Program-made: the position numbers and the translations under genes
The notes under the pieces: model-generated
Databases searched by the model: none
Seen by the model: the letters and a program-made list of their open reading frames with translations, nothing else
What the model was told of the DNA's origin: nothing
Shown here: positions 34,360 to 64,000 of the stretch, in pieces
How the letters are laid out: each line of letters starts with the position of its first letter
How positions within the stretch are numbered: position 1 is the stretch's first letter
Origin: a virus
Virus record (IMG/VR): IMGVR_UViG_3300010354_000064
Span: 1 to 64,000 of that record
DNA: 64,000 bases
Direction: 5' to 3' (one strand)

Positions 34360-34395
34360 GCCTCCTCTACGAGGTGGCCCCATCGAGAATCAACG
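34360..34395 (-). promoter_or_regulatory. Class I bipartite promoter, copy 3
   Basis: CGTTGATTC-N13-CTCGTAGA-N6-ATG on the minus strand. Confidence 0.75.
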
Positions 34396-35493
34396 TACCC
34401 AAACCTGACCTCGGTGGATTTTGCCGATGAGCGACACCCCCACCCCAAACGCAGCGGCCACCGACGATTGCGTGGCCCCTCCGGCTAGCCGCGCACGAAT
34501 CTCCGTGACCTTCTCGACCGTGAGCTTACCCGAACGTGCCGAGAGGCGGCGCGTCTGGTTCTGCTCGGCTTTCGTGGCCCAACGGCAGTTGGCAGGCCAC
34601 CCACGCGCAAGGCAGTCCGCGCACTTGCCGCACGAGTAGTGCCCTCCGCGATTTGCACGGGTGAGCGTGTACGTGGGGGCGGGCTTCACCCCCACGTCGG
34701 TCAAGAAATCCTCGAAAGACCCCCGCCAACGCTCGCACATCGTGATGCCCGAGCCCCCGTAATCCTCGTAGCGGCCGTGCTTCGGGTTGAAGCACCGAGT
34801 CTTGATGCTGACCCACGTCTTGTACTCAGGGCTACCCGTGCGTCCGTGGACGTGGTTGCCGTGGTCGGACCCCCTCGGCATCGGGCGGCGGTTCGCACTC
34901 TGCTCGCTCTTCGTCGCCCACCGGACGTTCCCCGGCTCGTACCCACGCGAACCGTCAATGCGGTCGAGGCTATGCTGCGGGGTCGGCTTCGGCCCAAGGT
35001 GATCAAAGAACGCCATGAAGTCGTCTACCCACCCCGCGTGGACGCCGATGCCGCGCCCACCCCAACCGGAGTAGTTGCTGCTCTTCGGGTTGAGGCAGCG
35101 GTCCTTCATAGAAATCCACGCGCGGTACTCCGGCGTATGGATGAGGCCATGCTTGAAGTTGGTGGGCCATCCGGGGCGGGGCTCCTTCGAGGAAGGTGCC
35201 CCCGCACCTTGCGGCCGACGGTTCCGGTTCTGCTCGGTAGGAAGCGACCACCGGACGTTGCCGGGTTCGTACCCCGCATCGTTGTCGATGCGGTCGAGGC
35301 TATGCTTCGGAGAGGGACGGGGGCCGACGTGGGCGAAGAACGCCTCGAAGTCCGCAGCCCACTCGGGGGCCAACGTAATCCCTCGGCCCCCGTAGTTCGG
35401 GTAGGCGAGGTGACGAGGGTTCAAGCATCGCTGCTTGATCTGCTGCCAACACTTGTACTCGGGAAGCTGGGATCGACCATGCTTGAGGTACAT
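34390..35493 (-). mobile_element. Free-standing HNH-type homing endonuclease-like gene: three tandem domains + C-terminal HTH
   Basis: Three copies of HG...PEY..W..[IM]K.RC.NP...[YW]GG.GI...W...F..F, two followed by SLDRID...YEPGNVRW...EQ..NRR. C-terminal KLTVEKVTEIR..HTH. Confidence 0.85.
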
Positions 35494-35558: not shown

Positions 35559-36194
35559 TTAGAAACATTTATCCATACCTCTCCCTTGCCATTGTGGTAG
35601 ACGCACCTCGCGAAGAATGTTGAAACGCTTGCTCGCGATGGCCGAAAACACCTTCTGGTACGGGGAGTACTTGGCGTCTGCGCGGGCGAGGTCTTCGAGG
35701 CTCTTCACGGCGCGGAAGAAGCGATGCCGCACCCGCCCTTGCGTGAGGTTCAGCCGTGTGGCGACCTCGGACTGGCAGGTCGTCTCCCACATGCCGACGA
35801 GGATGTCCACGTCGATGGGGGCGAACACGTCGGCGAGGTCTTCGCGGATTTCATCCACGGTGATTTGCGGAATAGACAGCAGGAACTTGATGCGCTTGAG
35901 CCCCCGGTCGAGCCGATAGCTGATGGCTGCCTGGGTGACCTCGAAGATGGCTGCGATGTCCGCCTGCCTCTTGCGCTTGATGAAGTACAGGTAGATGAGG
36001 TCGGCTTCCCGACGCGGGATGCGGTCGAGCAAAGGCGCGATACGACTCTCGTAGTCGGCCTCCGCGAACAGCGTCTCGACGCCTTCCTCTTCGGCCTCGG
36101 AATCCAAGCTCGGCGTGACCAAGCGGTTCGCCAAAGCCATTGGGTCCATCGGAATCACGTACCCGGATGCCACCATCTTGTCCTCCCAACTCAC
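35559..36194 (-). CDS. Sigma-factor-like protein with two sigma4-type HTH domains
   Basis: IPRREADLIYLYF...QADIAAIFEVTQAAISYRLDRG and QSEVATRLNLTQGRVRHRFFRA. Confidence 0.7.
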   Translation of the reverse strand: MSWEDKMVASGYVIPMDPMALANRLVTPSLDSEAEEEGVETLFAEADYESRIAPLLDRIPRREADLIYLYFIKRKRQADIAAIFEVTQAAISYRLDRGLKRIKFLLSIPQITVDEIREDLADVFAPIDVDILVGMWETTCQSEVATRLNLTQGRVRHRFFRAVKSLEDLARADAKYSPYQKVFSAIASKRFNILREVRLPQWQGRGMDKCF

Positions 36195-38086
36195 GAGGCA
36201 GCCTCCGAGAAGAAGGCCGAGAGCACGCGCGACTTGTTCATTCCGATGTCATCCAACGCGAGGCTGGACGCGCCCTGGTCGGCGTTCGGGGAGTGTAGCC
36301 GGAGGTCGAGGTTCGTCACGAGCGTCATGAGACGCACATTCAGGCGCACTTGCTTCTCAGCCGCCCGGATTTTCTCGCGGAGCGACTGCGAGAGCCCAGC
36401 AAGGTTCGAGACGAAGATACCATCGACGGTCCCGTAAAGGTTCAGCAGCTTGCTGGCAGTCTTGTTTCCGCAGCCCGGCGCACCGGGGATGTTGTCAGAG
36501 GTGTCCCCACCGAGCGCGCGGAGATGCACCATCCGCTCGGGGGCTACCCCGTACTCGGCCTGCACGACCTCGGGGGTGCAGAGCCTCTCCTTGCCAACAC
36601 CGACCGCCGGGACGAGTACGTGCGTCGTGTCCGTCACGAGTTGCATGAAGTCTCGGTCGTTCGAGACGATGACGTTGTGCTGGTCGGCGAGCCGACCGCG
36701 CACCAACGAAGCCACCACGTCGTCCGCTTCTTCGCCTTCAGCGTGTGCTTGCCAAACGCCAAGAGAGGGGAGGTTCGCCTTGAGCCACTCGACCTCGAAG
36801 GTCACGCGCAGAGGGTTTCGATTCGCCTTGTAGTCGGCGAACAACTCCTTACGGCGCGTCGAGAGGCTATCCCAGCAGACCCACACCTCGGCCTCGGGGT
36901 ATCGCTTGCGGAGCGCCGAGAGACTGTTGAGGAACCCGACGATGGCCCCCGTGGGTCGTCCCTTGGCGTCGCGAAGGTCAGAAAGGCCCGGTGCCATCGA
37001 GCACCGAACCGCCATGTTCATGCCGTCGATGACGACGTTCTCGGTCACGGTGCTCCCTTTCATGCGGCGCTCAATAGACAGAACCGACCGTTCGATGTCA
37101 AGGAAGCGCAGCACCGCCGAGTGTAGCAGACTGAAAGATTGCGCCACCCCTTCGAGTGAACCCCAAGGTAGGTTGCGGTCAGTCTGCTCCACGACCCGAT
37201 TCAACTGCCCCAGACGTTGCCCCCAATCGCGAAGCCTCTCCAAGTTAGAGTGCGTGTCGAGCACCGACCCCAAGCTGAGAGGGTGCTCGAAAGCGCGAAG
37301 GAAAGCATGTAGTTGCGCGCCTTGCCTCAACCACCGGGTGAGGTGATGGTACCGGGTGTAGAGACGCTTCATCTCCACGAGAAGTTGAGGAGCCGACTGG
37401 AGCCGCATCTCGGCCTGGATGGTGCGACCGTTCGAGAGCCAGCGGTCGATGCGTTGCACCTCGAAAAGGCGCTCCCGAAGCGGCTCGATGGAACGAGGCT
37501 CCCAACGAAGCAAAGGAAGAGCGGCATTGAACCAGCCACGCGCCTCACGAGCTTGCAGCACGAACGACGGGAGGGACACCTTGTTCAGCAGGTGAAGGAA
37601 CGAGCGCGGCAACGTGATGAGGCTATCCTTGCTGCGAAGCTCGACGCTGACCTGCACGGAATCCTGCTCGGGGATGTCCTCGATGACTACCGCCGTGAGA
37701 TTCTTGTAGGGGCCGGAGTTGATGACCACGGTGTCGCCGACGCCGATACCCTGGTCTGAGTGCGCGCGAATCTGCCGCCGAAATTTGTCGATGTCACGGT
37801 CGGTCACGCACGCGAGACGACGCCCTCGGGAACCGGGGTCGCGAACGACCGCCTGGACGTAGCGAGTGTCTTCAAGCCGAAAGTACTTCTCATCAGGGTG
37901 GGCGCGCTTGATGAAGGCGTAACCATCAACGAGATAGTTGATGACCCTATCCTCGCCGACTTGGGTCACCGAAGCAGGGACGAACACCTCGGCATCGCGG
38001 ATGGTCGCCCGAATCGCCGACCGAATCAGCGCCGGGTCTTCTCCCTCGGCCATAGGCCCTAGCTCTAGGATGACCCACTCAGACAT
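36191..38086 (-). CDS. NusG/RfaH-like (NGN+KOW) domain fused to a 5'-3' exonuclease (PolI N-terminal/FEN family)
   Basis: N-term WVIL...VFVP...LVDGYAFI...VGDTVVINSGPYKNL. C-term VIDGMN...WD...RKELFADYKANR...EADDVVASL...SNDRDFMQL...GDTSDNIPG. One uninterrupted frame. Confidence 0.85.
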   Translation of the reverse strand: MSEWVILELGPMAEGEDPALIRSAIRATIRDAEVFVPASVTQVGEDRVINYLVDGYAFIKRAHPDEKYFRLEDTRYVQAVVRDPGSRGRRLACVTDRDIDKFRRQIRAHSDQGIGVGDTVVINSGPYKNLTAVVIEDIPEQDSVQVSVELRSKDSLITLPRSFLHLLNKVSLPSFVLQAREARGWFNAALPLLRWEPRSIEPLRERLFEVQRIDRWLSNGRTIQAEMRLQSAPQLLVEMKRLYTRYHHLTRWLRQGAQLHAFLRAFEHPLSLGSVLDTHSNLERLRDWGQRLGQLNRVVEQTDRNLPWGSLEGVAQSFSLLHSAVLRFLDIERSVLSIERRMKGSTVTENVVIDGMNMAVRCSMAPGLSDLRDAKGRPTGAIVGFLNSLSALRKRYPEAEVWVCWDSLSTRRKELFADYKANRNPLRVTFEVEWLKANLPSLGVWQAHAEGEEADDVVASLVRGRLADQHNVIVSNDRDFMQLVTDTTHVLVPAVGVGKERLCTPEVVQAEYGVAPERMVHLRALGGDTSDNIPGAPGCGNKTASKLLNLYGTVDGIFVSNLAGLSQSLREKIRAAEKQVRLNVRLMTLVTNLDLRLHSPNADQGASSLALDDIGMNKSRVLSAFFSEAAS

Positions 38087-38088
38087 CC

Positions 38089-39513
38089 CTACCCTCTCCC
38101 CGGCCAAGTAAGCTCGAACTCGCGTCGCCATTGTTCGGGGGTGAGGATTTGGTGCCCATCTGCTTCTTCGACCCCGGCAAAGTTGAGCGCCAGCGGCGCG
38201 TGGTCACGGCCCCTCGGCTTCTGACGAGCGACTGCCTGATGGTCGAAGTCCGTGAGCGCGGCGATGTCGCCAGAGCCGAGACTCCCGATGCCGTCGGTGC
38301 GTACCACACCTTTCCCATTCGGTGAAGGTTTCGATGCAGGAATAGGAGCCGGAACTGGGGCAGGAGCAGGAGCAGGCGGAGGTGCAGCCACCGCCGCCGG
38401 GGCAGGCGGAGGGGTCACTGGGGCGGCCGGAAGCGGAGCAGCCACGACCAGAACGGGCGCGGCGACAGGACCAGAAGTCGTCGGGATGCCCCCAGAGAGG
38501 CGGAGCACGTCGCAGAGGAGCGACACCTTCGAGGCGTACCGCTGACGAAGGAAGTGCTCGGCGAGCCGCACCACGTTGTCGCCGTAGGCGTCGTAAACCC
38601 GCTGCCCGAGGCTCTTGTCTACGTACACGAAGTCCGCGAACATCCCGTGCCTCAGCCGAAACGTGTTCATGGCCGCCTCGGCAAGGCCAGCCGACACGTC
38701 CTCGGGGCTCACCCGTTCGCAGAGGCCCTCGACAAGTTCGATGGCGCGCTTCGGGGTACCGAGCGCCAGAAGCACCTCGTAGTAGGTCGAGACGACAGAG
38801 AGGTGCAGGTACTCGCGCACGTTGTCGAGGTTGACCCGCCCCATCTGGGCAATCATCTCCAGCCGGTTCACGACATCGCGAACGTGGCCGCCCGAGTAGT
38901 CGATGACGGTGAGCACGCCATCGTCCTCGTGTTCAACCCCCTCGGCATCGAGGATGCGGTTCATCCGTTCGAGCACGTCCTCGCGCGTGATTTTGCGGAT
39001 GGCGTACTCCTCACAGCGGGAGCGGATGGGGCCTCGGATTTTCTCGGGCTCGGTCGTGCAGAACACGCCGACCATCTTCTTCTCTTCGAGCGGCTTCAGG
39101 AGAACGTCCTGAGCATCCCGGCTCATCCGGTGCGCCTCGTCGAACACGTAGACGCGCTTCGCGGCATTGAAGACCGCGAACGGAAGGTCATCGACAATGG
39201 CCCGGATGTTCTCGATGGTGCCGCCCGATGCCGCATCCTGCTCGACGTAGGCCCCCGGCTGACCGTTGAGCACGTCGCGGCAGTTGTCGCACTCGTTGCA
39301 GGGCTCGGGGTCAGCCTTGTCGAGATTCTGGCAAAGCATGGCCCGCGCGTGGATACGGGCAAGGGTGGTCTTCCCCTGCCCGTGCCCACCCGCGAAGATG
39401 TAGGACACGTCGAGCGCGGTGCCTTTGGCGAGCCGCGCCTTGAGTAGCTGAACGGTACCCGATTGACCGAGCACGTCACCGAACTTGAGGGGGCGATAGC
39501 GGGTGTCCCACAC
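38089..39513 (-). CDS. dnaX: DNA polymerase III clamp loader gamma/tau subunit
   Basis: RYRP..F.DVLGQ, G..GQGKTT.ARI, PCNECDNC, DAAS, DEAH, IRSRC, G.VRD. Confidence 0.93.
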   Translation of the reverse strand: MWDTRYRPLKFGDVLGQSGTVQLLKARLAKGTALDVSYIFAGGHGQGKTTLARIHARAMLCQNLDKADPEPCNECDNCRDVLNGQPGAYVEQDAASGGTIENIRAIVDDLPFAVFNAAKRVYVFDEAHRMSRDAQDVLLKPLEEKKMVGVFCTTEPEKIRGPIRSRCEEYAIRKITREDVLERMNRILDAEGVEHEDDGVLTVIDYSGGHVRDVVNRLEMIAQMGRVNLDNVREYLHLSVVSTYYEVLLALGTPKRAIELVEGLCERVSPEDVSAGLAEAAMNTFRLRHGMFADFVYVDKSLGQRVYDAYGDNVVRLAEHFLRQRYASKVSLLCDVLRLSGGIPTTSGPVAAPVLVVAAPLPAAPVTPPPAPAAVAAPPPAPAPAPVPAPIPASKPSPNGKGVVRTDGIGSLGSGDIAALTDFDHQAVARQKPRGRDHAPLALNFAGVEEADGHQILTPEQWRREFELTWPGRG

Positions 39514-41859: not shown

Positions 41860-42539
41860 CGGTGCCCTCGGATGCGCTTGAGCCCCAGGCTCCACGTCCC
41901 GTCGTCCTGCGTGTCCTCAGTCCCCTGGTAGGCCGTGTGCGCGTGGTCGAGGTAGGACTGCTTGTGGGTAATCATCAGCAGGTCGATGCCCGTCGAGTCC
42001 GCCAGCTTGCACAGGAACTTGCCCGCCTGGTCGGTGTACTCGTCGCTGACCGCTGCCAACGTCTCGTCGAGAAGAAGCAGGGGGCGCTTCTTCAGCCGGA
42101 GAAGCGCGAGCAGCCGGAGCACGAGCGACGCAACGCTTGATGGCCCACCCCCGAAGGATTCCAGAGGGTGCCCTCGGATGACCGTTTCGTCCGCGCCTTG
42201 GCGCAGAAAGAAGTCGATGGCGACCTTGTTGTACTTGGTCCCGACTTCGGCCTCGAAGGCGAGCGACTGGTCGTGGAAGATGGTGTGAAGGCCCTCGGTG
42301 ACGATGCCTTCGATGCCCTTCACTTGGTCGAGCACGAGCCTGTCCATCAGCACACGAAGAAGCTCGCCGACCTTGGTGAGCTTCTCGATGCTCTCCGACA
42401 GACTCGCCACCTCGGCCTCCTTCTCAGCCACTTCGGCCACAAGGGCGTCTCGCGCCACTTGCAGCCGAAGGGCTCTCCGGGATAGCTCGCGGGTACGCGC
42501 CGTCAGTCCTTCGAGGGCATGAACCGGGTCACTCGGCAT
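41856..42539 (-). CDS. SbcC/Rad50-like ATPase, C-terminal half
   Basis: Coiled coil, then signature FGGG, Walker B LLLLDE, H-loop LMITHK. Confidence 0.85.
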   Translation of the reverse strand: MPSDPVHALEGLTARTRELSRRALRLQVARDALVAEVAEKEAEVASLSESIEKLTKVGELLRVLMDRLVLDQVKGIEGIVTEGLHTIFHDQSLAFEAEVGTKYNKVAIDFFLRQGADETVIRGHPLESFGGGPSSVASLVLRLLALLRLKKRPLLLLDETLAAVSDEYTDQAGKFLCKLADSTGIDLLMITHKQSYLDHAHTAYQGTEDTQDDGTWSLGLKRIRGHR

Positions 42540-43747
42540 CGGTACGTGTTCTCCGGCTGCGTTTCTACACCGCTTCCGCCGATGACCTTGCCATCACCGT
42601 CGATGAGAAACTCGTCGATGGTGCGAAGCATCGCCTGGTCCTTCGGGCGGCGCTCGTCAGCCGGGAGAATCATGACCCGCATCTCCAGACGGTCGCCCTT
42701 CGCGCCTTCGAGGAGGTCGATGAGGTGGTAGAGGTTGACCCCGAAGGTGAAGTCGCGGCTCTCGGAACCATCCTTGGGGAGCACGGGCACCGGGAAGCTC
42801 TTTGCCTTCGAGTTGCCCTCGACGACCGAGAAACTCAGTTCGTTCGATGCCGCCGTGTAGGTCAGGCGGATTTTGTCCCGCTTCGCGTCGAGTTCGGTCT
42901 TCGTGTACTTCAGCGCGTTCACGAGAGCGCGCACAGGCACGTCGAAGACGAACTTGTCGTTCTTCAGCGCGTAGTAGGCGTACTTCGAGTGGGTCTTCGT
43001 GTGGTGAGCCCAGCCGAGCACCCGCCCCTTGCCGTCGATGGCGAAGGTCATGTTCTGGCCGGTCTTGATGGTGACCGTGCTCTCGCACTTGCCGAGGAAG
43101 CTCGACACGAAGGGAAGGTGCTGCCCGTGAAGCCCGAGGCCCTTGCCCTTGAAGGCGTCGCAGTAGAAGTAGAACGCCTGCGTGCCGTTCGCGCCGAAGA
43201 GCGTGCCGTCACCCTTCGCCCACGCCTCGTTCGATTCGTCGAAAACCTGGATGGCCTTGTACTGGTCTTCGGCCTTGTTGTCTTGGGGCTTGGCGAGGAA
43301 GGGCTTGGCGAGGCTGATGGACTCGCGGAGGATAGCGACCGAGAAGTCGCGCTCGTTCGAGGCTGCCTCCACGTCCTTATCGCAAGACGCCATGAGCTTG
43401 GGGTCGTAGCTCGTGCGCTCCGAGCCCGCGCCGCTGCCCGACGTGTATTTGACGGTGTGAACGTCGCCGCTGCTGGTGGCCTCGAAGGTCAGCACCTCGT
43501 CCTGAAGGAACCGAAAGCCCTCGATGTAGTCGGCAGGGTAGATGAACGACCCCTCGCCTTCAACATCGGACACGGGGAAGTCCGCCCGCGCGACGTGCAG
43601 CGAGTCGCGGCTGTAGACGAAGCACGTCTCCCCTCGGATGACGAAGAGGTAGCCCTTACCACCCTGCGGGGTGATGGGGCGGGGCGGGACGATGGACACG
43701 ATGTCGAGGGCCGCGTTGAGGTCGGCAGCCTTGGCCTGAAATTTCAT
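42503..43747 (-). CDS. DNA polymerase III beta sliding clamp-like protein
   Basis: MKF....DL.AAL.IVS.V N-terminus, EGEGS, ~400 aa; clamp-loader genes nearby. Confidence 0.7.
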   Translation of the reverse strand: MKFQAKAADLNAALDIVSIVPPRPITPQGGKGYLFVIRGETCFVYSRDSLHVARADFPVSDVEGEGSFIYPADYIEGFRFLQDEVLTFEATSSGDVHTVKYTSGSGAGSERTSYDPKLMASCDKDVEAASNERDFSVAILRESISLAKPFLAKPQDNKAEDQYKAIQVFDESNEAWAKGDGTLFGANGTQAFYFYCDAFKGKGLGLHGQHLPFVSSFLGKCESTVTIKTGQNMTFAIDGKGRVLGWAHHTKTHSKYAYYALKNDKFVFDVPVRALVNALKYTKTELDAKRDKIRLTYTAASNELSFSVVEGNSKAKSFPVPVLPKDGSESRDFTFGVNLYHLIDLLEGAKGDRLEMRVMILPADERRPKDQAMLRTIDEFLIDGDGKVIGGSGVETQPENTYRCRVTRFMPSKD

Positions 43748-55757: not shown

Positions 55758-58061
55758 CTAGAACTTGACCTCACAGTAGCCGCCAGCGCAAGCCACTTCG
55801 CCCGCGAGGTTCGTCTCATCCCCCTCCTCGACGATGGCCGTGTAGTCCACCGGCTTGTAGCTCTCCAGGATGGCGTTCCAGCGCGCCTCGTCGGCGGGCG
55901 TGGTGACCTCCTCATTCGGGGCGAAAGCGTAGTCCTTGTCGCCGGAAGCAGCCAGCAGGCTGACACCCGTGAAGTACTCGCGGTTCTCCCAGAGGTAGTC
56001 CGCCACCTTGTCCCACTCCTCGGGCCGCACCGTGACGGTGTTGCTGACGTTGTGGTTGAGCCCCGGCGAGTGCTTGGGGTCCGACGTGCCGGGAAGCACC
56101 CAGTTCTGCTGAGTGGACTTCACCATGTCGAGGAACTGGATAGCCCCCAGGTCGGCTCGCACCGTTGCGTTCGCAGGGGCCTCGACCGGAAACTCGATGA
56201 CGTACTTGCCGTCCGGCTTCCTGACGCACATGTGCGGGTTGACCGCCCGGAACGCCTGGAAGACCGTTTCGAGTTCGTCGGCCGTGACGCGACGGATGTA
56301 CCGCTTCGCGTGGTGAGCGTGGTGCCCGGAACCGACACAACCAAGTTCGAGGCTCGTGGTGCCAGAGGGCTTCACGCAGGTCGTACGAGCGGCGGGCTTG
56401 ACCCCAATCTTCGCAGCGTACTCGGCGTTCCACGCCTTGATTTTGCCCGCCACTTCCCGCTGGTACTCGGGGTTGCAGGCGATGTGGGGCGCATCGAGCA
56501 TCCCGGTCATACCGATGCCGAGCAGGGCCTCGCGCTCGGCGAGCGTCTCGCTAATCCACCCGAGGTAGGGCATCCGGGTGTACCCTGCCTGGAGCGTGCC
56601 GATGAGCGTGGCGGCCTTGGCGGCCTCCTCGAAATCCGCGAGGCTCGTGAGCTTGGCCGCGTTGATTTCGCAGAGGTTGCAGAAAGCCCAGCCGGTGTAG
56701 GTCTGCCCGACGGTCACCTTGACTCCACGCGCAGCGAGCTTCGTCTGCTCCTCCTCCGTGATGGTGAGCAGAGGGTTGAGCCCGATTTCGCAGCAGGGAT
56801 TGGTGCCGTAGTCGTAGTTCGCGGTGAAGTAGAAGCCGGGCTCTCCCCATTGGCGCGTCATCTGGAAGATGCGCTTGAACTGCTTTTTCTTCACCTCGTC
56901 ACGCTTCAGAACGACCGAGTTGTTCGCGTTCGCGAAGTAGGGGTCCGTCTCCCACCAGTTGCCGGTCTTCGCAAAGAGCATCTCGGAGTCGTCGAGGCTG
57001 AAGAGGCAAATCATCGCCGAGCGACGGATACCGCCCGAGAGAACGGCGTCAGCCGCGTGGCACATGATGCGGTGGCACTCGATGGGCCGGAGCTTGCGAC
57101 CCTGAGCCTTCGAGAGCACACCTCGGATGCGCTCCAGGGAATCCTTCAGCTTGAGGTGTCCGGGAGCCTTGCCGCCCGACGTGTGAAGCGGAGCACCCGC
57201 GTCGCGAATCAGGTGGTAGGACAACTCCAGGTTCACGCCATCGAGGTAGCTCTGGATGAGCGCCTTCAGCGCATCGGCCCATCCCTCGATGGTGTCCTCG
57301 ACGACGTGGTGGCGGACCTTCTTGGGGTCCACGTAGCCGAGGCCGGGTAGCTTCTCAACGTGGTCAAACTGCACCGAGTAGCCGACCCCGCAACCGGAGA
57401 GCAGGAGGAACAGCGCCTCCGAGAAGACCTCGGGGCGGTCTACCAAGGAAAACGAGCAGTTGTAGATGCGGTTGTTGTTCGAGAGGATGGCGTCACCTCC
57501 GAACTGCATCGACCGCATCGAGGGCAGGACGCGCTTGGCGCGCACGAGGTCGAAGGCCCACTTGATTTCCTCGGCGAGGGCCTCGTACTGGTTGAGGTGC
57601 ATCACCTCAACGCGCTCGACCGTCTCCTCGTAGACCTCTCGGCGGCGCAGACGAGAGACGTACCGGGCATACTTGCCCGCGTGGATGTAGTCGCTGATGG
57701 CCTTGGGGTCGGGAGCCTTCGAGGTGCGCCCACCACGAGCCTCAGCGCGCTTGTGCCGGAAGAGGATGAACGCCTTGGCGACCTCGAACTGCCCGTGCTT
57801 CATGAGGGCCGTCTCGACCGCATCCTGCACACGCTCCACGTCGATAACGTCCTCGGTGAGCGTGTCGATGACGGTGCCGATGACCCTTGTGATGGCGCGT
57901 TCGTCGAGAGTCTTGCACTCCTGCCAGGCGCGGCCGATAGCCCGCCTCAGCTTTTCGACATCGAACGGCTGAAAGGTGTTGCCATCGCGCTTGAGGATTT
58001 TCTTACCCTTGGCTTTGGTCGGTGTGTCTGCGCGGTTGTCGGTTGCGTTCGATGAGAGCAT
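55758..58061 (-). CDS. nrdJ: Class II (B12-dependent, monomeric-type) ribonucleotide reductase with N-terminal ATP cone
   Basis: KRDG...FDVEK ATP cone; LPSMR, YNC, GGIRRSA, GEPG, TNPCCEI, TCVKPSGT, C-terminal ACAGGYCE. Confidence 0.9.
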   Translation of the reverse strand: MLSSNATDNRADTPTKAKGKKILKRDGNTFQPFDVEKLRRAIGRAWQECKTLDERAITRVIGTVIDTLTEDVIDVERVQDAVETALMKHGQFEVAKAFILFRHKRAEARGGRTSKAPDPKAISDYIHAGKYARYVSRLRRREVYEETVERVEVMHLNQYEALAEEIKWAFDLVRAKRVLPSMRSMQFGGDAILSNNNRIYNCSFSLVDRPEVFSEALFLLLSGCGVGYSVQFDHVEKLPGLGYVDPKKVRHHVVEDTIEGWADALKALIQSYLDGVNLELSYHLIRDAGAPLHTSGGKAPGHLKLKDSLERIRGVLSKAQGRKLRPIECHRIMCHAADAVLSGGIRRSAMICLFSLDDSEMLFAKTGNWWETDPYFANANNSVVLKRDEVKKKQFKRIFQMTRQWGEPGFYFTANYDYGTNPCCEIGLNPLLTITEEEQTKLAARGVKVTVGQTYTGWAFCNLCEINAAKLTSLADFEEAAKAATLIGTLQAGYTRMPYLGWISETLAEREALLGIGMTGMLDAPHIACNPEYQREVAGKIKAWNAEYAAKIGVKPAARTTCVKPSGTTSLELGCVGSGHHAHHAKRYIRRVTADELETVFQAFRAVNPHMCVRKPDGKYVIEFPVEAPANATVRADLGAIQFLDMVKSTQQNWVLPGTSDPKHSPGLNHNVSNTVTVRPEEWDKVADYLWENREYFTGVSLLAASGDKDYAFAPNEEVTTPADEARWNAILESYKPVDYTAIVEEGDETNLAGEVACAGGYCEVKF

Positions 58062-62770: not shown

Positions 62771-64000
62771 TCACCCGCTCACCACAGAATCGGAGGGCTT
62801 CCTCTTGTGGAGCATGGCCTCGGTCGTCAACATCGTCCCAGCGACCGAGACGGCGTTCTGGAGCGCGCAGCGCACGACCTTGGCAGGGTCAAGCACTCCG
62901 GCATCGAGCAGGTTCTTGACCTCGAACGTCGTCGCATCGAGCCCGTGGTTGTCGTCCGCATCCTCGACGCGCGCAACCCAGAGGTCAGCCGACTCCCCGG
63001 CGTTCTGGCAGATGACTCGCAGAGGCTCGCGGCACGCCTTCAGGACGAGGTTGAAGCCAATCCACTCGGTGTCCCCCTCGGGAAGGTCGTATCGAGCGAG
63101 AGCCGCGCGTGAGCCCTCGTCACCATCGACCGCGAAGCCGACGAGCGCGTTGACCTGGAGAGCCGCGTGAATGAACGTCGTACCCCCGCCCGCAACCACG
63201 CCTTCGTCGATGCTCGACTTGGTGGCGTAGAGGGCGTCCTCCATGCGGGCTTTGAGTTCCTTCATCTCGGGTTCCGTGTGCGCGCCAACGCGAATCACGC
63301 AGACCCCTCCGAGGAGCTTGCCGAGACGCTCCCGAATTTTGTCGGCGTCGTACTCCGAGCCTGAGCGTGTGGCCTCGGCCTTCAGTTCGGCGATGCGTGC
63401 TTCGATGGCTTCGTCGGAGCCGCCCCCATCCGAGATGAGCGTCTCCTTGGCGGTGACGCGGATGCGCTTGGCCGTCCCGAGGTGTTCGAGGGTGAGCCCC
63501 TCGAAGCTCATGCCGACTTCCTTCGAGACGAAGGTCGCGCCGGTCAGTATGGCGATGTCCTTGAGCAGATAGCTCTGCTGCGTGCCGAAGCCGGGGGCCT
63601 TCACGAGGCACGAGAGGAACTGGTTGCGCTGGAGGTTCATCACGAACGTCGGGATGGCATCCCCAGAGAAGTCTGCCGCCATGATGAAGAGCGACCGGCG
63701 CTCGGCGAGGACGGCCTCGATGAGCGGGACGAGCGGACGGACGCTCCCAAGCGTCATGTCGGTCACGAGCACGTAGGGGTCGTGCAGGACCGTCTCCTGC
63801 TTACCCTCATCGGCGCAGAAGGCGGCGCTAGCCCAGCCACGGTCGAGCTTCATGCCGTCGGTTGTCTCGACAACCGTCGTGGCCTTCTTGCCCTCCTCGA
63901 TGTTGACAACCCCATCCTTACCGACCTTGGCGACCGCTTCCGCGATGACGCGGCCGATTTCCTTGTCCCCGTTGGCCGAGAGGGTTGCCACCTGGGCGAT
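62771..64000 (-). CDS. groEL: Chaperonin GroEL (5' part outside the window)
   Basis: SANGD.EIG, VGKDGV, GM..DRG, VKAPGFG, DIAILTG, ERLGKL.GGV, EDAL.ATK, GVVAGGG, GVLDPAKV.R.ALQNA.SVA. Confidence 0.95.
   Translation of the reverse strand: MAQVATLSANGDKEIGRVIAEAVAKVGKDGVVNIEEGKKATTVVETTDGMKLDRGWASAAFCADEGKQETVLHDPYVLVTDMTLGSVRPLVPLIEAVLAERRSLFIMAADFSGDAIPTFVMNLQRNQFLSCLVKAPGFGTQQSYLLKDIAILTGATFVSKEVGMSFEGLTLEHLGTAKRIRVTAKETLISDGGGSDEAIEARIAELKAEATRSGSEYDADKIRERLGKLLGGVCVIRVGAHTEPEMKELKARMEDALYATKSSIDEGVVAGGGTTFIHAALQVNALVGFAVDGDEGSRAALARYDLPEGDTEWIGFNLVLKACREPLRVICQNAGESADLWVARVEDADDNHGLDATTFEVKNLLDAGVLDPAKVVRCALQNAVSVAGTMLTTEAMLHKRKPSDSVVSG

What the first reader, a model, noticed from the sequence alone, without database searches (positions are those of the whole stretch)
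36191..38086. NusG-like domain fused to a 5'-3' exonuclease
Seen: one frame containing NGN+KOW (about aa 1-165), a ~180-aa W/R/L-rich helical linker with weak internal periodicity and more AT-rich codons, then a complete PolI-type 5' nuclease. An internal GGGAG-N4-GTG at 37048 could also yield a stand-alone nuclease. Known: NusG/Spt5 travels with elongating RNA polymerase, and nucleases drive torpedo-type termination in eukaryotes (Xrn2) and archaea (FttA with Spt4/5). I know no characterised bacterial or phage NusG-FEN fusion. Inference: an RNAP-tethered nuclease for R-loop or primer removal, host transcript destruction, or replication-coupled late transcription.
Basis: partly seen in the sequence, partly recalled or inferred. 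Interest (0 to 1): 0.72.

Follow-up and report, generated by a model that had tools for sequence, protein, structure and literature searches.

The report
Huge-phage NusG fused to flap nuclease
An uncultured freshwater huge phage joins a divergent copy of NusG, the factor that rides on RNA polymerase, to its only DNA flap nuclease in one protein; relatives show that the NusG part is an older phage transcription factor that later captured the nuclease, which points to an untested link between phage transcription and DNA replication.

Summary
Window 36191-38086 (-) encodes 631 aa in three parts: NusG-like NGN+KOW, a poorly conserved helical spacer of about 180 aa, and a complete Pol I-type 5' nuclease with all eight carboxylates invariant. 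It is not an accident. More than 150 proteins keep the fusion, and independent assemblies bridge the junctions without indels.

New here:
- The NusG-like gene alone sits in the same slot (clamp-loader tau / NusG-like / sigma-region-4-like gene) in more distant huge phages.
- No FEN was detected in any of the five such phage records searched.
- On a NusG-domain tree the fused forms make one clade, and the split form L018 nests inside it.
- Other fusions join this NusG domain to sigma domains.

So the core is a phage transcription module, and the nuclease is later cargo. In complete fused relatives it is the only FEN, and no phage RNA polymerase was detected.

My best reading (0.42) is a host-RNAP-tethered flap nuclease, possibly also made alone from an internal start. 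Binding to RNAP, the substrate and the second product are all untested. I found no paper describing it. This scan has noted the same fusion before on other DNA, in at least 15 genomes. Novelty: a new variant of a known kind.

The parts
36191..38086 (-). NusG-like/FEN fusion gene (631 aa plus stop); residue numbers below follow the 646-aa ORF P0001 that starts at 38131
38092..38100 (-). Shine-Dalgarno GGGAGAGGG, 5 nt before the ATG at 38086; the tau stop codon TAG (38091-38089) lies between them
37757..38086 (-). NGN domain (aa 16 to about 125), including the conserved YLVDGYAF strand
37583..37756 (-). KOW five-stranded barrel (aa about 126-183); tip loop LRSK with invariant Arg166 where NusG has IFGR
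37049..37582 (-). Helical W/R/L-rich spacer (aa 184-361); 104-207 aa long in relatives; 26% mean identity
37046..37057 (-). Candidate internal ribosome site GGGAG-CACC-GTG (Val362), at the column where the split FEN gene of L018 starts
36194..37048 (-). Pol I-type 5' nuclease/FEN (aa 362-646); D369, D421, E468, D470, D492, D494, D543, D546 and the arch YKANR are invariant
35559..36176 (-). Neighbouring gene: 205-aa protein with two sigma-70 region-4-like HTH units; RBS GGGAGGA-CAAG-ATG lies 14 nt after the fusion gene's stop
38089..39513 (-). Neighbouring gene: clamp-loader tau/gamma-like ATPase, ending 2 nt before the fusion gene's start

Best explanation
The gene makes a two-function protein.

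Its N-terminal 170 residues are a divergent NusG-family module (NGN+KOW). This module is an old transcription factor of this lineage of huge phages. It always lies between the clamp-loader tau gene and a sigma-region-4-like gene, at the border of the replication and virion-gene blocks.

In one sub-lineage a Pol I-type flap endonuclease gene landed directly behind it. The two were then fused through a variable-length coiled-coil-like spacer.

The inferred result: the phage's only flap nuclease is held on elongating host RNA polymerase. No phage RNAP was detected in relatives. There it can remove RNA-DNA flaps, R-loop ends or mRNA-derived primers where transcription and replication meet on a genome of roughly 400-500 kb with very long one-directional gene blocks. 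A free nuclease for ordinary Okazaki-fragment processing is possibly also made, from the internal GTG at 37048.

Shown: the domain identities, intact catalytic residues, conservation of the fusion, its phylogenetic pattern, the gene context and that it is the only FEN. Inferred: binding to RNAP, the substrate and the second product.
For: - Domains.
- Both enzymatic ends are about equally conserved (0.5-0.8 column identity) while the spacer is not (about 0.3). The catalytic carboxylates are invariant in 43 of 43 sequences.
- The fusion is kept in more than 150 proteins of 590-690 aa and in 18 of 21 IMG/VR loci, with identical synteny.
- Independent assemblies from other studies bridge the junctions with no indel.
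- In five relatives of 350-529 kb (three of them 100% complete), the fusion gene is the only PF02739 hit and the only NusG-like copy. A family-A polymerase without a FEN domain is present. No RNAP beta or beta' and no sigma region 2 were detected.
- The stand-alone NusG-like gene sits in the same tau/NusG/sigma4 slot in 13 loci, two of them the same sequence filed twice. Five of their phage records were searched and none has a FEN hit.
- On the tree, the fused-with-linker forms are one clade (100/99), with the split L018 nested inside it (96/87).
- Fusions that link this module to transcription: NusG-FEN-sigma4 (P0061) and sigma r2+r4-NusG (P0180).
- Internal start: the column of Val362 ranks 3rd of 737 for start codon plus SD-like motif. 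It is the only one of the top three in a non-conserved stretch, and it mostly holds ATG. It is also the ATG of the split FEN gene in L018.
Against: - Nothing here shows binding to RNAP. The NusG match is far below every NCBIfam cut-off (27 bits against 135.7).
- The KOW tip residue that housekeeping NusG uses for Rho and S10 (Phe165, from memory of the literature) is an invariant Arg, so its partners differ.
- No FEN was detected in the phages that have the NusG-like gene alone. So the module's function does not need a nuclease, and the fusion could be for co-expression only.
- The spacer length varies twofold, which argues against a precise geometric role.
- In this window GGGAG-N3-6-RTG marks true gene starts in only 2 of 10 cases on the coding strand, so the internal start is weak on this sequence alone.
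- Divergent phiKZ-like RNAPs might escape the Pfam models.
Confidence: 0.42

Rival explanations
1. Replication-coupled late transcription, with the logic of T4 gp45/gp33/gp55. The FEN end recognises nicks or flaps (or the sliding clamp) on replicating phage DNA. The NGN end holds RNAP at the beta' clamp helices and the neighbouring sigma-region-4-like protein holds the beta flap. Virion genes are then transcribed only from replicating templates.
For: The gene lies exactly between the replication block (primase, tau, delta, delta', ligase, RecD2, RecA) and the head/packaging block (terminase, portal, protease). It is co-operonic with tau and immediately upstream of the sigma4-like gene. No sigma region 2 was detected in five relatives. 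Fusions with sigma domains exist. A conserved C-terminal (I/V)LxAFF motif resembles clamp-binding peptides (the resemblance is from memory).
Against: All FEN catalytic residues are invariant, which a mere DNA-recognition role does not need. No FEN was detected in relatives that have the same tau/NusG/sigma4 module, so any such coupling cannot depend on it. No clamp was identified with confidence (weak phrog_947 hit). The (I/V)LxAFF stretch may simply be the last helix of the FEN fold.
Confidence: 0.2
2. Two independent functions in one polypeptide: a processive antiterminator for the very long one-directional operons, and an ordinary Okazaki-fragment nuclease. They were fused only because the genes were adjacent. 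The fusion gives co-expression but no physical coupling of the two processes.
For: The spacer is poorly conserved and of variable length. Fission occurred at least once without loss of either half (L018). The NusG-like gene works alone in other phages. A likely internal start would free the nuclease. Nearly all genes over 60 kb lie on one strand.
Against: The fusion persists through divergence down to about 37% identity in more than 150 proteins, while split forms are few. Even when split, the genes stay overlapped or translationally coupled (ATGA in L018).
Confidence: 0.2
3. The NusG-like module no longer binds RNAP. It serves as an adaptor to another machine, such as the replisome, the clamp loader or the ribosome.
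For: The module is very divergent from NusG (27 bits). Only 592 proteins of 1.84 billion match the family profile at E<=1e-3, so it is a family of its own. The KOW tip is changed to Arg. It is co-operonic with tau.
Against: There is constant adjacency and occasional fusion to sigma-type domains. The NGN core strand YLVDGYAF aligns with the FPGYVFV strand of NusG.
Confidence: 0.1
4. A torpedo-type terminator or host-transcript destroyer: the nuclease degrades nascent RNA 5' to 3' behind RNAP.
For: A nuclease fused to an RNAP-riding factor is formally analogous to Xrn2/Rat1 or FttA with Spt4/5 (from memory of the literature).
Against: The nuclease is closest to Pol I 5' nuclease domains and to FenA, which are DNA-structure-specific enzymes. 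It is the phage's only FEN, next to replication genes. The NusG module predates it.
Confidence: 0.05

Closest known systems
Specialised NusG paralogues (RfaH, LoaP, UpxY, ActX/TaA) and housekeeping NusG/Spt5
   Same: NGN plus a single KOW barrel, about 170 aa. Encoded by a mobile or accessory genome next to the genes it presumably serves. The profile matches NusG chains over their full length.
   Different: Scores are far below the NusG, UpxY and LoaP model cut-offs. The KOW tip is LRSK instead of IFGR. The module carries a 180-aa helical spacer and a nuclease. It is always paired with a sigma-region-4-like gene. No recruitment element is known.
Pol I-type 5' nucleases / stand-alone bacterial and phage FENs (M. 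smegmatis FenA, E. coli ExoIX, T5 D15, SPO1 gp32.85)
   Same: Same fold (Foldseek 4e-19, TM 0.78 to FenA), with all carboxylates, the YKANR arch and the H3TH module. It is the only FEN in a phage whose family-A polymerase lacks one.
   Different: None of these carries an N-terminal transcription-factor module.
T4 late-transcription machinery (gp45 clamp, gp44/62 loader, gp33, gp55)
   Same: Replication proteins are used to license late transcription by host RNAP. A small factor is predicted to sit on the beta flap. The gene lies at the replication/late junction and next to the clamp loader.
   Different: No sequence relation. Here the bridge would be a NusG-like domain and a nuclease rather than a sliding clamp. 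This is entirely inferred.
Nuclease-driven termination with Spt5 (archaeal FttA/aCPSF1 with Spt4/5; eukaryotic Xrn2/Rat1)
   Same: A nuclease working beside a NusG/Spt5-family factor on RNAP.
   Different: Those are separate proteins and RNA-specific nucleases of other families. Here the link is covalent and the enzyme is a DNA flap nuclease.

Membership tests
NusG/Spt5 superfamily | NGN alpha/beta domain | tested here: met
   Family profile against PDB: T. maritima NusG 3.4e-10 and E. coli NusG 1.2e-4 over positions 2-163. Foldseek NusG chains at 8e-10 and 1.5e-9. 12 of 15 members give a weak Pfam NusG hit.
NusG/Spt5 superfamily | KOW five-stranded barrel after the NGN domain | tested here: met
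   Pfam KOW at 23.7 bits on the isolated domain (cut-off 22.3), and 14 of 15 members hit. The model shows five strands at aa 134-183.
NusG/Spt5 superfamily | Binding of NGN to the RNAP clamp helices | not testable with these tools
   Host unknown.
Housekeeping NusG (TIGR00922) | Score over the equivalog cut-off | tested here: not met
   27.3 bits against a cut-off of 135.7.
Housekeeping NusG (TIGR00922) | KOW tip Phe (E. coli F165, used for Rho and S10; residue identity from memory) | tested here: not met
   IFGR of NusG aligns with LRSK. Arg166 is invariant in 43 sequences.
UpxY / LoaP antiterminators | Score over the NCBIfam cut-off | tested here: not met
   UpxY 21 bits against 100; LoaP 16.7 against 125.
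RfaH | ops-like recruitment element and an all-alpha autoinhibited KOW | tested here: inconclusive
   The model shows the barrel state. No recruitment element was sought.
Pol I-type 5' nuclease / FEN (PF02739 + PF01367) | Both Pfam domains over cut-off | tested here: met
   109.9 and 75.4 bits.
Pol I-type 5' nuclease / FEN (PF02739 + PF01367) | Eight metal-binding carboxylates and the helical-arch YKxxR | tested here: met
   D369, D421, E468, D470, D492, D494, D543, D546, Y434 and R438 are invariant, and K435 nearly so (at least 90%), in 43 sequences. The spacing matches that of T5 FEN (numbering from memory).
Pol I-type 5' nuclease / FEN (PF02739 + PF01367) | Flap or 5'-3' exonuclease activity | not testable with these tools
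   Needs an enzyme assay.
Sigma-70 family (neighbour gene 35559-36176) | Region 2 plus region 4 | tested here: not met
   Only region 4 matches, with two HTH units. No region 2 was found anywhere in five relatives.

The most novel reading that the evidence does not exclude
The NusG-like module and the neighbouring tandem sigma-region-4 protein together replace sigma on host core RNAP. NGN would sit on the beta' clamp helices, where sigma region 2 or T4 gp55 sits. The sigma4-like protein would sit on the beta flap, where sigma region 4 or T4 gp33 sits. In the fused clade the flap nuclease would anchor this bipartite factor to nicks, flaps or the clamp on replicating DNA. That would be a new way for phages without their own RNAP to couple late transcription to replication.
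Probability: 0.15. Interest if true: 0.85.

Novelty: new variant of a known kind. Interest (0 to 1): 0.64.

Why it matters
NusG/Spt5 is the only transcription factor conserved in all domains of life. Its known bacterial paralogues act only as regulators and carry no enzyme.

A whole lineage of 350-530 kb phages covalently attaches its single replication-type nuclease to such a factor. It keeps the factor next to a sigma fragment and the clamp loader. This offers a directly testable case of physical coupling between transcription and DNA replication or repair: R-loop and primer processing, collision repair, or replication-licensed late transcription.

The comparative series gives natural controls for experiments: NusG alone, then NusG plus an adjacent FEN gene, then the fusion, then secondary fission. 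The module also looks like a portable RNAP-docking domain with exchangeable cargo.

Tried and rejected
- Complex prediction of the fusion protein with the sigma4-like neighbour gave no verdict (score 0.19, mark 0.32). It counts neither for nor against binding.
Context came from IMG/VR loci instead.
- The protein-atlas search on the spacer gave no usable hit.
- The spacer folded alone (pLDDT 74, pTM 0.28) matched only generic coiled coils and long helices, with Z at most 6.5. No fold assignment.
P0207 found nothing.
- The T7-type RNAP search found nothing, but its controls were silent too, so it is uninformative.
- A beta-clamp Pfam model and DnaE were not detected in relatives. The clamp may be too divergent.
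- The one metatranscriptome run (X12) gave only two short contigs over 37701-38093. DNA carry-over cannot be excluded, so this is not evidence of expression or of transcript ends.
- GGGAG-N3-6-RTG as a stand-alone predictor of starts in this window: only 2 of 10 coding-strand hits are gene starts. The internal start therefore rests on the comparative signal only.
- Seven literature searches and one reading of the main jumbo-phage comparative paper found no description (one search was a syntax error).
- Accidental loss of a stop codon or an assembly error is rejected.
Full report
**What is there.** The minus strand holds one open frame, 36191..38131.
- Forty-three homologues begin at the second ATG (38086) with MxEWVVLEL.
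- That ATG follows a GGGAGAGGG Shine-Dalgarno. It lies 2 nt after the TAG of the upstream clamp-loader tau gene.
- Residues 366-613 (P0001 numbering) match both Pfam 5'-3' exonuclease domains (1.3e-31 and 5.2e-21).
- The NCBIfam Pol I models match at 2e-54 over their first 250 positions.
- An AlphaFold2 model (pLDDT 83.7) superposes on M. smegmatis FenA at Foldseek E 4e-19 and TM 0.78.
- D369, D421, E468, D470, D492, D494, D543 and D546 are invariant in 43 of 43 sequences, and the arch motif YKANR is conserved (Y434 and R438 invariant, K435 in at least 90%). The nuclease is catalytically intact.

**The NusG part.** With Pfam alone it is sub-threshold (KOW 1.7e-4, NusG 0.04). Four other lines confirm it.
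- PHROG 6386 'transcription antiterminator' matches at 2e-6.
- A profile of 15 family members hits PDB NusG chains: T. maritima at 3.4e-10, and E. coli at 1.2e-4 over the full length.
- Foldseek finds NusG chains at 8e-10 and 1.5e-9.
- The model shows an NGN alpha/beta domain followed by a five-stranded KOW barrel.

It is nevertheless no ordinary NusG.
- It scores 27 bits against a TIGR00922 cut-off of 135.7, and is far below the UpxY and LoaP cut-offs.
- Only 592 of 1.84 billion representative proteins match the family profile at E<=1e-3.
- The KOW tip IFGR of NusG aligns with LRSK, and Arg166 is invariant. From my memory of the literature, that Phe (E. coli F165) is the contact for Rho and S10, so the KOW partners probably differ.

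**The spacer.** Residues 184-361 form five long helices.
- The spacer is rich in L and R and holds 6 of the protein's 11 Trp. Three of these lie at 36-residue intervals. Only one helix pair is significantly alike (z 5.2). GC is only slightly lower than in the FEN part.
- Across relatives it is 104-207 aa long, through gain or loss of helix units of about 37 aa. Mean identity is 26%; only W200 and W231 are invariant.
- Folded alone, it matches only generic coiled coils (Z at most 6.5).
- It behaves as a flexible tether rather than a defined domain.

**Not an accident.**
- A word-indexed search with residues 1-365 returned 158 proteins. Nearly all are 590-690 aa and carry both FEN domains. They sit on contigs of up to 659 kb. 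JGI's pipeline already labels many of them '5'-3' exonuclease/transcription antitermination factor NusG'.
- Only four shorter proteins were found.
- Contigs from independent lake and freshwater studies span 35605-37426, 35721-37651 and 37622-38200 with substitutions but no indel.

**Genome and context.** The window is part of a 75.5-kb IMG/VR record that CheckV rates 16% complete.
- Upstream on the same strand lie the replication genes: RecD2-like helicase, NAD-dependent ligase, an ATP-cone (ribonucleotide-reductase-type) protein, Pol III delta and delta', RecA, SbcCD-like proteins, primase, a metallopeptidase and tau.
- Downstream lie the sigma-region-4-like gene, an HNH endonuclease, and then terminase, portal and protease.
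- In 21 IMG/VR loci the order primase / metallopeptidase / tau / NusG-FEN / sigma4-like / orf300 / orf94 / orf507 is the same.
- Five relatives of 350-529 kb were searched (three 100% complete, two with terminal repeats). In each, the fusion gene is the only PF02739 hit and the only NusG-like copy. A family-A polymerase of 950-1070 aa without a FEN domain is present. No DnaE, RNAP beta or beta', or sigma region 2 was detected.
- So these phages appear to use host RNAP throughout, and this protein is their only flap nuclease.

I classed the top 145 profile hits.
- 47 are fused.
- 59 are NusG-like only (165-240 aa).
- 38 carry other extensions.

Thirteen IMG/VR loci hold the stand-alone form, on contigs of up to 536 kb; two of them are the same sequence filed twice. 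All show the same slot, primase / metallopeptidase / tau / NusG-like / sigma4-like, with no FEN between. Five of these phage records were searched, two of them at least 90% complete, and none has a PF02739 hit.

One locus (L060) has NusG without a spacer, an overlapping separate FEN gene and then the sigma4-like gene.

A maximum-likelihood tree of the NusG domain separates the spacer-bearing forms from the stand-alone forms plus L060 at 100/99. The spacer-bearing side holds 17 fused genes plus the split L017 and L018.
- L018 is split into NusG-plus-spacer and FEN genes with an ATGA overlap. It nests inside a fused subclade with the window (96/87).
- L017 is split into overlapping frames and sits at the base of the clade.
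- The root is unknown and L060 has a long branch.

The simplest history is this. An old tau/NusG-like/sigma4-like module existed first. A FEN gene was then inserted behind NusG. The two fused through a new spacer. Secondary fission is rare and keeps translational coupling.

**Links to sigma.**
- The sigma4-like neighbour is more conserved than the fusion protein (65% against 48% mean column identity).
- P0061 (840 aa) continues from the FEN end straight into it (64% identity to the window's protein).
- P0180 (541 aa) has sigma regions 2 and 4 followed by this NusG-like domain.
- These fusions tie the module to the RNAP/sigma world rather than to the replisome.
- A structure-based test of direct binding between the fusion protein and the sigma4-like protein gave no verdict.

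**Internal start.** GGGAG-CACC-GTG (37057-37046) has the same geometry as the neighbour gene's ribosome site, GGGAGGA-CAAG-ATG.
- In the window alone the motif is not predictive: 2 of 10 coding-strand occurrences are gene starts.
- Comparatively, 8 of 17 fused genes have ATG, GTG or TTG at this column, seven codons before the catalytic Asp. Six of these have an SD-like motif. The background is 1.1% per codon.
- The column ranks third of 737. The two higher columns are conserved Val codons preceded by conserved Gly or Glu codons, and they hold no ATG.
- The same column holds the ATG of the separate FEN gene in L018.
- A second, nuclease-only product is therefore plausible but not shown. The signal could also be a relic of the former start codon.

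**Interpretation.**
- Most likely (0.42): the NusG-like module docks on host RNAP, as its relatives do. In this clade it carries the phage's sole flap nuclease to transcription complexes. There RNA-DNA flaps, R-loops or mRNA-primed restart products arise on a very large genome transcribed in long one-directional blocks.
- Rival (0.2): replication-licensed late transcription with T4-like logic.
- Rival (0.2): co-expression only, with no physical coupling.
- Rival (0.1): an adaptor that no longer binds RNAP.
- Rival (0.05): an RNA torpedo.

The torpedo and host-RNA-destruction ideas lose weight for two reasons. The NusG module predates the nuclease and works without it. And the nuclease is of the DNA-replication type.

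**Novelty.**
- I found no paper in the searchable library. The main comparative study of jumbo phages mentions flap nucleases but not NusG or KOW.
- The architecture is visible in automatic annotations.
- Earlier agents of this scan noted the same fusion on other DNA, in at least 15 genomes.
- I rate it a new variant of a known kind: a NusG paralogue with enzymatic cargo.

Noticed in passing
window 34390-35493 (-): A 367-aa protein with three tandem HNH-endonuclease units (phrog_3377, 1.8e-97) sits between the sigma4-like gene and orf300. Among 21 related loci it is present only in L009 and L010, with a remnant in L018, so it looks like a mobile homing endonuclease.
   Followed up: partly
L008 3335-6034, L009 3224-5920, L089 1327-3894: The tau clamp-loader gene is interrupted. 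Residues 1-48 and residues 41 onward lie about 1.3 kb apart. This looks like an intein or an intron with a homing endonuclease near the P-loop.
   Followed up: no
P0180 (541 aa) and P0061 (840 aa): Two other fusions of this NusG-like domain: sigma-70 regions 2+4 followed by NusG-like (P0180), and NusG-FEN running on into the sigma4-like protein (P0061).
   Followed up: partly
window 36194-36235 (-), aa 633-646: A conserved C-terminal (I/V)LxAFF motif followed by a variable tail occurs in most of 43 homologues. It resembles PIP-box or clamp-binding peptides, but it may simply be the last helix of the FEN fold.
   Followed up: no
window 42503-43747 (-): A 414-aa protein with only a weak match to phrog_947 'DNA polymerase processivity factor' (1.8e-4) is a candidate divergent sliding clamp. 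Standard beta-clamp Pfam models find nothing in relatives.
   Followed up: partly
P0232, P0236, P0245, P0252, P0267 (about 320 aa): These NusG-like proteins share a different C-terminal extension ending in GLWxLTxxG...A(R/K), with no Pfam match. They may be another cargo type on the same docking module.
   Followed up: partly
L009 7647-9389: About 1.7 kb of extra DNA lies between the fusion gene and the sigma4-like gene in this 411-kb relative. Everywhere else the two genes are adjacent.
   Followed up: no
window 62771-63991 (-) and 55758-58061 (-): The phage encodes a Cpn60/GroEL-like chaperonin fragment and a 767-aa protein with an ATP-cone, probably a ribonucleotide reductase.
   Followed up: no
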